A DNA stretch of 64,000 bases from a virus, in IMG/VR virus record IMGVR_UViG_3300024312_000003, positions 32,001 through 96,000 of that record; one strand, written 5' to 3'. Every line of letters begins with the position of its first letter. The stretch's first letter is position 1. A program made the position numbers and the translations under genes. The notes under the pieces were generated by a model. That model was not told where the DNA came from. It did no database searches and saw nothing but the letters and a program-made list of their open reading frames with translations. Below, in pieces: positions 61,417 through 63,575 of the stretch.

Positions 61417-62070
61417 TTAATTAGATTGTGACAAAACAGTTGGAGCGGGAGGAACGAAAGATTTAGGTCCATCAAGACGCTTCTTCTTTGGTTGAAACTC
61501 ACCTTTTCGTTCAAACTTTTTAGGTTGCTTTGACTTCTTTGGTTCTTTCACATCATCGGGTTTAGAAGTCTTGGCTTCGACCGTTTGTGTGTTATCCAAT
61601 TCAGCTCGTTCACGACGTGCTCGTTCTTCACGATAGAATGGATATCCGTGAGGATAGTGTTGGTACTTACGACACATCTTCACCACAAACTTATCCGGGA
61701 TACCAATGGTCGATTTCCCTTCATGATGATTTTCCATGGACATCACATGAACAGTGTATCCATTATTTCGACCGCGAGTGATGTAACTTGCGTACTCAGA
61801 GAAATGTCCGTTGATATTCGTTACAATGATGACTTCAGTTTTCTTTTCTAGAAGTTCATTGAATCGAACATAACATTGAGAAAAAGACTTACTAACATTC
61901 TCCTGCACGAATTCGTATTGTTTCGTTTCAGGATTGATCATGAAGTCATTTGCTTCAATGATTTCAACTGTCTTACCGATGCCTTTGTACAGAGCAAGGA
62001 GTTCGTTAGCCAGAGTAGTGCGACCAGAACCAGGAGTACCTTTGATGATGAAGATTTTCATATAGCTCAC
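61417..62070 (-). CDS. P-loop kinase (AAA_33 / N4BP2-like, polynucleotide-kinase-like) with a basic tail
   Basis: IFIIKGTPGSGRTTLA, ANDFMI..Y.F, IIVTNIN and HEG...IPDKFVVKM pattern. Confidence 0.7.
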   Translation of the reverse strand: MSYMKIFIIKGTPGSGRTTLANELLALYKGIGKTVEIIEANDFMINPETKQYEFVQENVSKSFSQCYVRFNELLEKKTEVIIVTNINGHFSEYASYITRGRNNGYTVHVMSMENHHEGKSTIGIPDKFVVKMCRKYQHYPHGYPFYREERARRERAELDNTQTVEAKTSKPDDVKEPKKSKQPKKFERKGEFQPKKKRLDGPKSFVPPAPTVLSQSN

Positions 62071-62090
62071 TTAAGTAGAACTGTTTACGA

Positions 62091-62235
62091 TGGTGGAGTG
62101 TCTAAAGATTCGAACTTTAGTAAGTGCTTGTAGATTACTCTATCAAATTGCACACAGGAATCATTTACACCTATTTCTAATCCCGTCGAATTAGAAAATT
62201 GGAGACCTGCTAGTTTTCCAATTCCATACCACTCC
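62091..62235 (-). ncRNA. Atypical tRNA-like RNA (145 nt) with a 38-nt anticodon-loop insertion and an extended variable arm
   Basis: GGAGTG/CACTCC acceptor stem plus ACCA, CTAAAG-TTCGAAT-CTTTAG T-arm, TGG/CTA D-stem with GG loop, and CAGG/CCTG anticodon stem. Confidence 0.7.
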
Positions 62236-62260
62236 AAAATATTGAATTACTTTGTAAAAA

Positions 62261-62776
62261 TTAATCTACATTCTCTAAACAACCACATCTACAACACATT
62301 GATTCTGTTGCTCGAAATGACTGAATGGTCTTACTTGATTCATCGAGAGAAATTTCTTGTCCTGGATTAAAAAAAGAATGTTCACAATCAGGGTATAGGT
62401 GTGCTACGAGATGGATGAATATGTCCTTACGCAATGATTCTGAATAAACAGTCATGTGTAAATCATCTTTCACTCCAAGATAACTAGTTATAAAACGAAT
62501 GTCTGTAAGCTCTTTGTGTTTGAAGACATGTTTAAATGGATTTTTATCTGAGAAAATTTTAACCAATTCTCTCTTGTGATTGATCCATTTATGACTGTTG
62601 TATATATTCTCAGGATATCGACCATACATGCCAGAGTCAAATTTTTCAACAACACTAGAAAGACTAATCTTCCAACCAGGCTGAGGAGCTTCTAGATAGA
62701 AACCATTTTTTCCAACATACAGATCAAAAGCATACCTTCCGTCTATAGGTATGTTTAAATATCCTGAGAATCTCAT
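62261..62776 (-). CDS. Hypothetical protein
   Basis: 171 aa with a C-terminal Cys cluster. Confidence 0.6.
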   Translation of the reverse strand: MRFSGYLNIPIDGRYAFDLYVGKNGFYLEAPQPGWKISLSSVVEKFDSGMYGRYPENIYNSHKWINHKRELVKIFSDKNPFKHVFKHKELTDIRFITSYLGVKDDLHMTVYSESLRKDIFIHLVAHLYPDCEHSFFNPGQEISLDESSKTIQSFRATESMCCRCGCLENVD

Positions 62777-63499: not shown

Positions 63500-63575
63500 T
63501 GGCTCCTCGACCTGGGCTCGAACCAGGGACCTGCGGATTAACAGTCCGACGCTCTACCAACTGAGCTATCGAGGA
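63500..63575 (-). tRNA. tRNA-Asn (GUU), CCA encoded
   Basis: TCCTCGATAGCTCAGTTGGTAGAGCGTCGGACTGTTAATCCGCAGGTCCCTGGTTCGAGCCCAGGTCGAGGAGCCA, a 76-nt canonical cloverleaf. Confidence 0.97.

What the first reader, a model, noticed from the sequence alone, without database searches (positions are those of the whole stretch)
62091..62235. Giant tRNA-like RNA with an intron-like hairpin at position 37/38 and a 34-nt variable arm
Seen, minus strand 5'-3': GGAGTGG TA TGG AATTGGAAAA CTA G CAGGT CT-CCA-A [TTTTCTAATTCGACGGGATTAGAAATAGGTGTAAATGA] T TCCTG TGTGCAATTTGATAGAGTAATCTACAAGCACTTA CTAAAG TTCGAAT CTTTAG ACACTCC A CCA. Canonical numbering holds from 1 to 37 (T8, D-loop GG, T33, anticodon CCA, A37). 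A 38-nt insert containing its own hairpin (TTTCTAAT/ATTAGAAA) then sits exactly where archaeal and eukaryotic tRNA introns lie. The variable arm is a three-part stem (GTGC/GCAC, TTG/CAA, TAGA/TCTA) closed by a GNRA loop (GTAA). The T-stem has 6 bp, so acceptor plus T is 13 bp as in tRNA-Sec. There is a G7-A mismatch and a T31-T39 mismatch after removal of the insert. The body looks class II (Leu-like D-loop, A73), but the anticodon reads Trp. Intact pairing in every arm argues against simple decay. Inference: a spliced non-cognate or recoding tRNA, a decoy for anticodon nucleases, synthetases or T-box/stringent sensors, or a new tRNA-mimic ncRNA.
Basis: partly seen in the sequence, partly recalled or inferred. 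Interest (0 to 1): 0.9.

Follow-up and report, generated by a model that had tools for sequence, protein, structure and literature searches.

The report
Anticodon-less tRNA-shaped phage RNA gene
A large environmental phage carries a real, conserved gene for a 145-base RNA that keeps a tRNA's outer frame but has a long hairpin where the codon-reading loop should be, so it almost certainly cannot decode; it resembles phage T4's still-unexplained 'species 1' RNA.

Summary
Three further lineages carry it at the same place, between a 168-171-aa ORF and a Pnk-like kinase gene.

On the four-sequence alignment, 97.9% of pair cells are paired (36-51% in slid controls). Thirteen pairs show compensatory double changes (0-1 in controls), and every helix has at least one.

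The intron/recoding-tRNA reading is not supported:
- The 'anticodon' differs between sister phages (CCA, CUG, CCG, CCC). Its bases stay paired with nearby conserved segments.
- Removing the insert still gives no tRNA that ARAGORN accepts at default.
- The contig holds no splicing endonuclease or RNA ligase.
- RNA-library contigs show only the unspliced form (weak evidence).

Best reading: a non-decoding small RNA on a class II tRNA frame. tRNA enzymes would cut it out, and its working part is the conserved extended arm. Its target is unknown.

It is in no Rfam family. It shares architecture, not sequence, with T4 rnaC. My own IMG/VR scan found 94 frames (78 distinct) of a large phage class built on a tRNA-Leu frame. 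This scan has noted that kind before on other DNA, in at least 112 genomes.

The parts
62091..62235 (-). Whole tRNA-shaped RNA gene (145 nt, GGAGTGG...ACACTCC-A-CCA)
   Evidence: Sequence as described. Conserved with covariation in 4 lineages. Model R1 finds one copy in the phage contig.
62229..62235 (-). Acceptor stem, 5' strand (GGAGTGG)
   Evidence: Pairs with 62095-62101. The first 4 bp (GGAG/CTCC) are invariant. Pairs 5 and 6 change on both sides (T-A to A-T, G-C to A-T). G7.A becomes T-A in L012/L013.
62211..62226 (-). D arm: 3-bp stem TGG/CTA and invariant loop AATTGGAAAA
   Evidence: Pair 12-23 changes G-C to C-G, and pair 11-24 changes G.U to G-C. The loop is identical in all full-length homologs.
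62154..62210 (-). Extended arm replacing the anticodon stem-loop (57 nt): basal 5-bp stem, conserved internal loops, distal hairpin
   Evidence: The basal stem covaries (C-G, U.G, U-A at pair 27-82 of the alignment). The 'anticodon' bases pair with the GTGTAAATGA segment; C35-G69 becomes U-A in L012.
62174..62197 (-). Distal hairpin TTTCTAAT / ATTAGAAA with loop TCGACGGG
   Evidence: Four of its seven counted pairs (helices 5 and 6) change on both sides. The loop motif YCGACRG is kept in L012 and L013, and is similar (TCCGAGGG) in L015.
62159..62169 (-). Near-invariant segment TGTAAATGATT on the 3' side of the extended arm
   Evidence: T92...T105 are invariant columns of alignment A1 across all five distinct sequences. 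This is the candidate functional surface.
62124..62153 (-). Variable arm (30-nt three-part hairpin, GTAA loop)
   Evidence: Folded as described. Replaced by a 3-bp mini hairpin in L012/L013 and by an unrelated 9-bp palindromic hairpin in L015.
62102..62120 (-). T arm: 6-bp stem CTAAAG/CTTTAG, loop TTCGAAT
   Evidence: Canonical T-loop. Pair 120-132 changes A-U to G-C. One extra base compared with the phage's tRNA-Ser makes the acceptor+T stack 13 bp.
62091..62101 (-). Acceptor 3' strand ACACTCC, discriminator A, encoded CCA
   Evidence: The discriminator is T in L012.
61417..62061 (-). Neighbour: Pnk-type P-loop kinase with a basic tail, starting 29 nt after the CCA
   Evidence: PHROG 2071/505. 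Pfam AAA_33 in 59 of 64 relatives. Model pLDDT 87; best fold match is the T4 polynucleotide kinase domain. Orthologues at 44% identity lack the RNA.
62261..62776 (-). Neighbour: conserved 171-aa ORF of unknown function directly upstream
   Evidence: No Pfam or PHROG match. Syntenic in L012-L014. The protein atlas gives no lead.
63500..63575 (-). Neighbour: canonical tRNA-Asn(GTT) 1.3 kb upstream on the same strand
   Evidence: ARAGORN and Rfam. tRNA-Leu(TAA) lies a further 0.8 kb upstream in the genome, and also upstream of the element in L013.

Best explanation
The element is a gene for a non-decoding small RNA built on a class II tRNA frame.

Shown:
- It has a tRNA-like acceptor stem with encoded NCCA, a D arm with the GG loop, a canonical T arm and a variable hairpin.
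- The anticodon stem-loop is replaced by a 57-nt imperfect hairpin.
- The gene is conserved with compensatory changes.

Inferred:
- It is made as part of the leftward transcript that also carries tRNA-Leu, tRNA-Asn and small ORFs.
- RNase P and the 3' tRNA-trimming enzymes release it at G1 and CCA.
- The L-shaped frame makes it stable.
- It cannot read codons, because there is no free 7-nt anticodon loop and the triplet is not conserved.
- The 13-bp acceptor/T stack would also disfavour EF-Tu.
- The working part is the extended arm. Its internal-loop sequences (GGTCTCY and TGTAAWTGATTCC) and its apical loop (YCGACRG) are better conserved than the helices around them. It most likely binds a protein, as a sponge or as the RNA subunit of a complex.

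In short, the tRNA body acts as a processing and stability chassis for that arm. The target is unknown.
For: Reality and structure:
- Homologs sit at the same place in L012, L013/L014, L015 and L016.
- RNAalifold gives a cloverleaf with 13 of 34 pairs changed on both sides.
- 97.9% of pair cells are paired against 36-47% when partners are slid. Thirteen double-change pairs against 0-1, and 0 of 500 shuffles reach the observed score.

Not a decoder:
- ARAGORN default and Rfam tRNA/tRNA-Sec/tmRNA models miss it.
- The triplet varies: CCA, CTG, CCG, CCC.
- C35-G69 changes to U-A.
- 'Spliced' constructs are still rejected at default.

tRNA origin:
- The acceptor stem and T arm are nearly those of the phage's own tRNA-Ser(GCT). 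The D-loop resembles its tRNA-Leu.
- Ordinary tRNAs align to model R1 end to end.

Payload:
- The invariant columns cluster in the D-loop, the T-loop and the two sides of the basal part of the arm.
- The variable arm is swapped wholesale.

No own promoter or terminator.

Precedent:
- T4 rnaC (139 nt) has a terminal stem, a canonical T arm and long hairpins. It is a validated stable RNA of unknown function (PMC9697503, PMC3014915).
- 94 of 115 IMG/VR pattern hits are 123-157-nt single frames. They have a tRNA-Leu D arm, at least 6 of 7 acceptor positions paired (mostly 7 of 7) and unrelated bodies.
Against: - There is no direct evidence of a discrete, stable transcript. The RNA-library contigs are about 3x deep, extend into both flanks, and may derive from DNA.
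- Only four distinct full-length sequences (three lineages) plus one partial are known. Covariation therefore has little statistical power, and the inner-arm pairing is not settled. A D-loop/'anticodon' pseudoknot is equally well paired.
- No partner or target was found. The phage genome holds no antisense match.
- The element is missing from the next-closest phage group, so it is dispensable in that lineage.
Confidence: 0.6

Rival explanations
1. Charged tRNA mimic. The frame is aminoacylated by a synthetase that ignores the anticodon (LeuRS or SerRS, established for class II tRNAs). The charged or uncharged RNA then acts off the ribosome. It could be a sponge for the synthetase or for an acceptor-end-modifying toxin, or an amino-acid donor. 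This refines the best explanation, with the frame rather than the arm as the active part.
For: - The first four acceptor pairs GGAG/CTCC, the encoded CCA and the D-loop are invariant, while pairs 5-7 covary.
- A73 is present in four of five sequences.
- The body is class II, with a variable hairpin in every homolog.
- The acceptor stem and T arm are nearly identical to the phage tRNA-Ser, and the D-loop is Leu-like.
- The huge Leu-frame class keeps the frame rigid while its bodies are unrelated.
Against: - L012 has U73.
- The D-loop is one base shorter than in tRNA-Leu, and the discriminator is not the G73 of the phage tRNA-Ser.
- A 13-bp branch reduces serylation of tRNA-Sec according to the review PMC7609411.
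- The arm's internal loops are conserved, which a frame-only function would not require.
- Charging cannot be tested with these tools.
Confidence: 0.15
2. Cis-acting leader of the kinase mRNA. The tRNA-like fold serves mainly as an RNase P or RNase E/Z cleavage signal or as a stabiliser. It would set the 5' end or the translation of the downstream Pnk-like gene. The released RNA would be a by-product.
For: - The CCA ends 29 nt before the kinase start codon, with no terminator or promoter between them.
- The linker AAACAGTTCWACTTAAGTGAGCTAT is invariant.
- RNA-library contigs run from the element into the kinase leader.
Against: - Kinase orthologues in L162-L165 keep the upstream and linker motifs but lack the element. 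The gene therefore does not need it.
- A cleavage signal needs only an acceptor stem and T arm. It does not need a conserved D-loop, an encoded CCA or a conserved extended arm.
Confidence: 0.12
3. Intron-bearing tRNA. A 38-49-nt intron at 37/38 is removed to give a decoding class II-bodied tRNA (Trp CCA here).
For: - Relaxed ARAGORN calls tRNA-Trp(cca) with a 49-nt intron at 37/38.
- U33, C34 and A37 are invariant.
- Pairing of the anticodon with intron bases is normal in pre-tRNAs (established knowledge).
Against: - The anticodon would differ in each sister phage: Trp, Gln, Arg, Gly.
- Constructs with the insert removed fail ARAGORN at default, and the window's fail even at relaxed thresholds.
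- I found no bulge-helix-bulge motif by eye.
- The insert is too short for a self-splicing group I intron.
- The contig has no EndA, Rnl1, Rnl2 or RtcB, though it is only about 65% complete.
- The phage encodes an SLT transglycosylase and a tmRNA, which points to a bacterial host.
- No joined form was seen (weak).
Confidence: 0.06
4. Decaying tRNA pseudogene disrupted by an insertion, with no function.
For: - It is absent from a related phage group.
- It has a G7.A mismatch and a T.T mismatch.
Against: - Every helix, including those inside the insert, shows compensatory changes across lineages whose kinases are only 70-87% identical.
- The loop sequences are invariant.
Confidence: 0.03

Closest known systems
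Bacteriophage T4 species 1 RNA (rnaC, 139 nt) and species 2 RNA (rnaD), annotated in NC_000866 next to tRNA-Arg
   Same: - Phage-encoded and about 140 nt.
- Lies among tRNA genes on the same strand.
- Has a terminal stem adjoining a canonical T arm (CCGGG-TTCGAAT-CCCGG) and long hairpins in place of a decoding arm.
- No Rfam family covers it.
- Its function is still unknown (PMC9697503, PMC3014915).
   Different: - No detectable sequence relation: model R1 does not hit T4 at E<=1.
- rnaC shows no recognisable D arm and no encoded CCA.
- The window element keeps a full D arm, a variable arm and the base of the anticodon stem, and has a 13-bp acceptor/T stack.
Large class of phage RNAs on a tRNA-Leu frame with unrelated bodies. 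I could not find it described in the searched literature. Earlier notes of this scan report it, and re-found it here.
   Same: - Length 123-157 nt.
- At least 6 of 7 acceptor positions paired (mostly 7 of 7), a class II D arm, a canonical T arm, and discriminator A in most.
- The interior is replaced by a closed structured domain.
- ARAGORN default rejects them.
   Different: - Different frame sequence: D-loop AATTGGAAAA rather than GAATTGGTAGA, and acceptor GGAG....
- 13-bp rather than 12-bp acceptor/T stack.
- Encoded CCA, which most of that class lack.
- Keeps a separate variable arm.
- Cross-scores with R1 are only 23-26 bits, the level of ordinary tRNAs.
Class II tRNAs of the same phage, tRNA-Ser(GCT) and tRNA-Leu(TAA)
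   Same: - The acceptor stem and T arm are nearly identical to tRNA-Ser(GCT), and the D-loop is close to tRNA-Leu.
- tRNA-Ser(GCT) is the next-best hit of R1 in the genome, at 23.7 bits.
   Different: - No 7-nt anticodon loop.
- One extra base between the T stem and the acceptor stem.
- A73 instead of the G73 of tRNA-Ser.
tRNA-Sec
   Same: A 13-bp acceptor/T domain and a long variable arm (features listed in PMC7609411).
   Different: - No UCA or any conserved anticodon.
- 3-bp D stem with a 10-nt loop, instead of a 6-bp stem with a 4-nt loop.
- The Rfam tRNA-Sec model does not match.
Engineered 'tRNA scaffold' RNAs and viral tRNA-linked small RNAs such as the MHV68 TMERs (from my own knowledge, not checked here)
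   Same: A tRNA body supplies the processing signals and stability for an RNA module that it carries.
   Different: These are laboratory constructs or eukaryotic-virus RNAs. They are analogies of principle only, with no relation of descent.

Membership tests
Canonical decoding tRNA (Rfam RF00005) | Cloverleaf with a 5-bp anticodon stem and a free 7-nt loop; detected by tRNA models | tested here: not met
   There is no Rfam hit, even at E<=10. ARAGORN default finds nothing. The loop is replaced by a 57-nt arm.
Canonical decoding tRNA (Rfam RF00005) | Anticodon conserved among orthologues | tested here: not met
   CCA, CTG, CCG and CCC in four lineages.
Canonical decoding tRNA (Rfam RF00005) | Acceptor stem, D arm with GG, T arm with TTCRANY loop, NCCA end | tested here: met
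Intron-containing tRNA (archaeal/eukaryal type) | Bulge-helix-bulge motif at the exon-intron junctions | tested here: not met
   By inspection of the sequence and of the consensus fold. The junction has a 2x2 internal loop and a 5-nt bulge, not two 3-nt bulges 4 bp apart.
Intron-containing tRNA (archaeal/eukaryal type) | Splicing endonuclease and ligase available | tested here: inconclusive
   The 180-kb contig has none of PF01974, PF09511, PF09414 or PF01139. However, the contig is about 65% complete, the host is unknown, and the PF09511 control found no match in any control genome.
Intron-containing tRNA (archaeal/eukaryal type) | A spliced product exists and is a credible tRNA | tested here: not met
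   No joint in the RNA-library contigs (weak). Constructs with the insert removed are rejected by ARAGORN default.
Group I intron in a tRNA (the bacterial/phage type) | Intron of about 200 nt or more with a P3-P8 core | tested here: not met
   The insert is 38-49 nt. There is no Rfam intron match.
tRNA-Sec | 13-bp acceptor/T domain | tested here: met
   7+6 bp (or 8+5) in L012/L013. In the window it is 6 bp, one mismatch, then 6 bp.
tRNA-Sec | UCA anticodon, 6-bp D stem, match to RF01852 | tested here: not met
tmRNA | G3.U70 alanine identity pair, tag reading frame, pseudoknots | tested here: not met
   The third pair is A3-U70. ARAGORN -m finds nothing here, yet it finds the phage's real tmRNA elsewhere.
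T4 rnaC (species 1 RNA) family | Sequence or profile similarity to rnaC | tested here: not met
   R1 has no hit on the T4 tRNA region at E<=1.
T4 rnaC (species 1 RNA) family | About 140-nt RNA in a phage tRNA region with a terminal stem, a canonical T arm and long inner hairpins | tested here: met
T4 rnaC (species 1 RNA) family | Accumulates as a discrete stable RNA in infection | not testable with these tools
   Only about 3x contigs from RNA libraries are available.
Phage tRNA-Leu-frame RNAs with swapped bodies | Frame TG-GCG-GAATTGGTAGA-CGC with a 12-bp acceptor/T stack | tested here: not met
   The D arm and the stack length differ. Cross-scores are only generic.
Phage tRNA-Leu-frame RNAs with swapped bodies | Class II tRNA frame kept, decoding arm replaced by a structured insert | tested here: met
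YrlA / bacterial Y RNA | Ro (TROVE) protein partner; RNA ends form the Ro-binding stem | tested here: not met
   No TROVE gene in the contig. The ends form an acceptor stem with CCA. No Rfam match.

The most novel reading that the evidence does not exclude
The RNA would be one small branch of a vast, apparently undescribed class of phage 'tRNA-chassis' RNAs.

In this reading it is charged by an anticodon-blind synthetase (LeuRS or SerRS). Its missing anticodon loop and its 13-bp branch keep it off the ribosome. It then works in phage-host conflict in one of three ways:
- as a decoy for toxins that modify or cut the tRNA acceptor end;
- as a synthetase sponge;
- as an amino-acid donor.

It may also be acted on by the adjacent kinase, whose fold also resembles O-phosphoseryl-tRNA kinase.
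Probability: 0.12. Interest if true: 0.85.

Novelty: new variant of a known kind. Interest (0 to 1): 0.58.

Why it matters
Phage T4's tRNA-like stable RNAs have had no known function for about fifty years. This element, together with the 94 frames (78 distinct) on a tRNA-Leu frame that a single narrow pattern recovered from IMG/VR, shows that tRNA-framed non-decoding RNAs are common in phages. Standard tRNA finders and Rfam do not detect them.

This family is small but well defined. It has a conserved arm that is a candidate binding surface, and a natural control: sister phages whose otherwise syntenic locus lacks it. That makes it a workable entry point for asking what such RNAs do. It also warns annotators that relaxed tRNA callers will report these genes as 'intron-containing tRNAs' with arbitrary anticodons.

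Tried and rejected
- **Searches for more homologs, all empty.**
  - blastn against deposited phages.
  - An exact 3' 30-mer and a D-loop/AGGTCTC motif in IMG/VR.
  - The pattern TGATTCCT...GTTCGAATC in IMG/VR, which returned only ordinary tRNAs.
  - The pattern TAAWTGATTCCT...GTTCGAATC, submitted as its reverse complement, in JGI metagenomes and in bacterial genomes.
  - A kinase protein scan of IMG/VR.
  - A homolog search with the 171-aa ORF.
- **Synteny in distant phages.** X1 and ACP17 are not syntenic.
- **RNA libraries.** Two metatranscriptome runs of one study each hold one short contig, about 3x deep, covering the element without a joint. This shows neither transcription nor the absence of splicing, because DNA carry-over is not excluded and contigs cannot show RNA ends.
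- **Antisense targets.** The conserved loops have no match in the phage genome beyond the element's own complement.
- **Promoter idea.** The motif TTTACA-N10-ATWNTT just upstream occurs only twice in the genome, against about one expected by chance. There is no sigma-70 promoter or terminator next to the element.
- **Other tRNA frames with inserts in this genome.** None was found, but my filter required 7/7 acceptor pairs and so also misses the element itself.
- **Kinase as PSTK/KTI12.** Pfam KTI12 is only a weak secondary hit. AAA_33 and the T4 Pnk fold dominate. The first structure model was too poor to use.
- **171-aa ORF.** The protein atlas gave no lead.
- **Other known RNA types.** Small ribozymes, riboswitches and Y RNA were considered, but Rfam gives no relevant match at E<=10.
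- **attP-type tRNA fragment.** Rejected, because a covarying 5' acceptor strand is present.
Full report
**1. The observation**

- Its minimum-energy fold is -43 kcal/mol against -29 +/- 3.7 for dinucleotide shuffles (z = -3.75, 0 of 200 as good).
- That fold contains the acceptor stem, the inner hairpin, the three-part variable arm with a GUAA loop, and the 6-bp T arm.
- ARAGORN in default mode and Rfam at gathering thresholds see only the tRNA-Asn at 63500-63575.
- A permissive Rfam search of the locus returns nothing relevant.
- Only with the score threshold lowered to 80% and introns allowed does ARAGORN call a 'tRNA-Trp(cca) with a 49-nt intron at 37/38'.

**2. Context**

- The window is bases 32001-96000 of a 180,490-bp IMG/VR viral contig. 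CheckV rates it about 65% complete, so this is probably a jumbo phage.
- The contig carries nine canonical tRNAs and a permuted tmRNA, all on the minus strand.
- The DNA occurs in river, wastewater and groundwater metagenomes.
- The element lies between a 171-aa ORF of unknown function and a P-loop kinase gene whose ATG is 29 nt beyond the CCA.
- No sigma-70-like promoter or intrinsic terminator adjoins it.
- tRNA-Asn lies 1.3 kb upstream and tRNA-Leu(TAA) 2.1 kb upstream, on the same strand.

**3. It is a conserved RNA gene**

- The kinase has relatives at 70-87% identity. Their contigs (L012, L013/L014, L015, L016) all have a gap of about 178 nt at the same place, and it holds a homologous element.
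- The alignment shows textbook compensation:
  - acceptor stem GGAGTGG/ACACTCC becomes GGAGAAT/ATTCTCC;
  - D stem TGG/CTA becomes TGC/GCA;
  - the closing stem of the inner arm runs C-G, U.G, U-A;
  - there are further changes in the T stem and the inner hairpin.
- RNAalifold returns a cloverleaf in which 13 of 34 pairs have a change on both sides.
- Counted on that structure, with the seventh acceptor pair added (35 pairs), 97.9% of cells are paired against 36-47% when the 3' partners are slid by 1-3 columns. There are 13 double-change pairs against 0-1, and no shuffle of 500 reaches the observed score. Every one of the eight helices has at least one compensatory change.
- The caveat is depth. 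Only four distinct full-length sequences are known, representing three lineages, plus one 5'-truncated sequence.

**4. What is conserved and what is not**

- Invariant: the first four acceptor pairs, the D-loop AATTGGAAAA, the T-loop, the CCA, and two stretches flanking the base of the inner arm (AGGTCTC and TGTAAWTGATTCCT).
- Freely replaced: the variable arm. It is a 30-nt three-part hairpin here, a 3-bp mini hairpin in L012/L013, and an unrelated 9-bp palindromic hairpin in L015.
- Not conserved: the 'anticodon'. It reads CCA, CTG, CCG and CCC.
- In the consensus fold those bases are not in a loop.
  - They pair with the conserved GTGTAAATGA segment.
  - C35-G69 becomes U-A in L012, and A36-U68 becomes G.U.
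  - An alternative in which they pair with the D-loop bases TTGGA is also 100% paired, but through one-sided changes only.
  - I cannot decide between the two, and both may form.
  - Either way there is no free anticodon loop.

**5. The intron hypothesis**

- The insert is an order of magnitude too short for a group I intron, the only tRNA intron type known in bacteria and their phages (established knowledge).
- I see no bulge-helix-bulge motif.
- The contig encodes no splicing endonuclease, T4-type RNA ligase, Rnl2 or RtcB. The genome is incomplete, and the Rnl1 control was uninformative.
- An SLT transglycosylase and a tmRNA point to a bacterial host.
- When I removed the insert in silico, ARAGORN at default still called no tRNA in any homolog. 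At relaxed settings it called Gln(ctg) in L012 and Arg(ccg) in L013, and nothing for the window.
- A tRNA whose identity changes between sister phages is not a credible decoder.
- Four RNA-type libraries were laid on the locus. Short contigs of two metatranscriptome runs, and of a third library that is only guessed to be RNA, cover part or all of the element contiguously, and no joint was reported. At about 3x, with DNA carry-over possible, this is only a weak hint.

**6. Origin**

- The acceptor stem and T arm are nearly those of the phage's own tRNA-Ser(GCT). The D-loop is close to that of its tRNA-Leu(TAA).
- tRNA-Ser(GCT) is also the second-best hit of model R1 in the genome.
- Compared with tRNA-Ser there is one extra base between the T stem and the acceptor 3' strand.
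- The element therefore looks like a class II tRNA gene whose anticodon arm was rebuilt.

**7. The neighbouring kinase**

- 59 of 64 relatives match Pfam AAA_33; KTI12 is a secondary hit.
- A model built on a 64-sequence alignment reaches pLDDT 87.
- Its best structural matches are the T4 polynucleotide kinase domain (E = 2e-6) and fungal kinases that I recall, unchecked, as tRNA-ligase (Trl1-type) kinases. O-phosphoseryl-tRNA kinase ranks lower but superposes well.
- It is thus a Pnk-type kinase with a basic tail.
- A more distant orthologue (44% identity) lies in fully syntenic contigs L162-L165. These keep the TTTTTACA motif and the GTTCAAC-ATTAAGTGAGCT leader but have only 115 nt of AT-rich spacer. 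Neither R1 nor ARAGORN finds any tRNA-like element there.
- The RNA is therefore a lineage-specific insertion or loss. The kinase does not depend on it, which weakens both the 'kinase substrate' and the 'mRNA leader' ideas.

**8. Distribution and known relatives**

- No further homolog exists in deposited phages, IMG/VR, JGI metagenomes or one genome per prokaryotic species, as far as my patterns and model R1 can reach.
- T4 rnaC (139 nt) and rnaD lie directly after tRNA-Arg in the T4 tRNA cluster.
  - rnaC folds into a terminal stem, long hairpins and a canonical T arm.
  - Both are validated stable RNAs 'of yet unknown functions' (PMC9697503; also PMC3014915).
  - Rfam has no family for them.
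  - R1 does not hit them.
- Earlier notes of this scan report anticodon-less tRNA-shaped phage RNAs in at least 112 genomes. I treated these notes as a lead and tested it.
  - The pattern was a Leu-type D-loop followed by a canonical T-loop 75-105 nt later.
  - 94 of the 115 are single frames of 123-157 nt. In these a 7-nt strand, 13 nt before the D-loop in almost all of them, pairs at 6 or more of its 7 positions (mostly 7 of 7) with the strand after the T arm, mostly followed by discriminator A.
  - The 78 distinct sequences share a rigid frame but have unrelated bodies. ARAGORN default finds no tRNA in 75 of them.
  - The window element scores no better against these loci than against ordinary tRNAs (23-26 bits).
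- It therefore shares the architecture of that class but is a separate small family, with three features of its own: a 13-bp stack, an encoded CCA and a retained variable arm.
- I found no paper describing the class. The phage structured-RNA catalogue PMC10690425 mentions only five tRNA-overlapping candidates.
- The Ro/Y-RNA model mentioned for jumbo phages in PMC7824862 does not apply, because there is no TROVE gene.

**9. Most likely mechanism**

- Shown: a conserved, structured, tRNA-framed RNA gene without a decoding loop.
- Inferred: tRNA-processing enzymes release it from a polycistronic transcript. The L-shaped frame stabilises it, and the missing anticodon loop and 13-bp stack keep it out of translation.
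- Inferred: the conserved internal and apical loops of the extended arm are the active surface, most likely for a protein.
- A close variant is that the frame itself is the active part, charged by LeuRS or SerRS and acting as a sponge, decoy or donor. The invariant GGAG/CTCC, A73 and CCA fit that variant. U73 in L012 and the conserved arm argue against a frame-only role.
- A leader function for the kinase mRNA and a spliced tRNA are less likely. Simple decay is effectively excluded by the covariation.

**10. Verdict**

The headline interpretation (intron, Trp or recoding tRNA) is not supported; the fallback ('new tRNA-mimic ncRNA') is.
- It is a new, small family of a kind known since T4 rnaC. 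That kind is evidently widespread, unexplained and uncatalogued.
- Interest is moderate to high as an entry point to that class. It is not a unique oddity.

Noticed in passing
genome C1:117334-117703 (minus strand; 21.3 kb beyond the window's end): ARAGORN calls a permuted (two-piece) tmRNA with tag peptide AANDSTFAQRLAA in this phage.
   Followed up: partly
L173-L287 (IMG/VR loci): A very large class of 123-157-nt phage RNAs has a rigid tRNA-Leu frame and unrelated 70-100-nt bodies. Many share the acceptor AGTCAGG/CCTGACT, most lack an encoded CCA, and ARAGORN with introns allowed gives them arbitrary anticodons.
   Followed up: partly
window 62062-62090 and 62236-62260; L162:3341-3455: The 29-nt linker between the CCA and the kinase start (AAACAGTTCWACTTAAGTGAGCTAT) and the TTTTTACA motif after the upstream stop codon are better conserved than the flanking coding sequence. 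Both persist in phages that lack the RNA. Their role is unknown, and the motif is not a recurrent promoter in this genome.
   Followed up: partly
genome C1:113294-113600 (minus strand): A second exact copy of the 5' acceptor strand of tRNA-Ser(TGA), GGAAGCG, lies 217 nt upstream of that tRNA, inside the ORF-free structured stretch that earlier notes flagged. This may be chance.
   Followed up: no
ARAGORN lists tRNA-Gly, Thr and Met there but no tRNA-Tyr, so that note needs checking.
   Followed up: no
L136:2909-3047 (T4 rnaC): Rfam's weak tRNA-Sec alignment pairs an internal ACGGAACG with the 3'-terminal CGUUUCGU of rnaC. This suggests that the 3' ~93 nt form a tRNA-like unit with an 8-bp acceptor stem and a 46-nt 5' extension. 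I did not test it by covariation.
   Followed up: no
window 62096: One metatranscriptome contig carries G>A on the plus strand. That changes acceptor pair G2-C to G2.U in the RNA, so pairing is kept.
   Followed up: no
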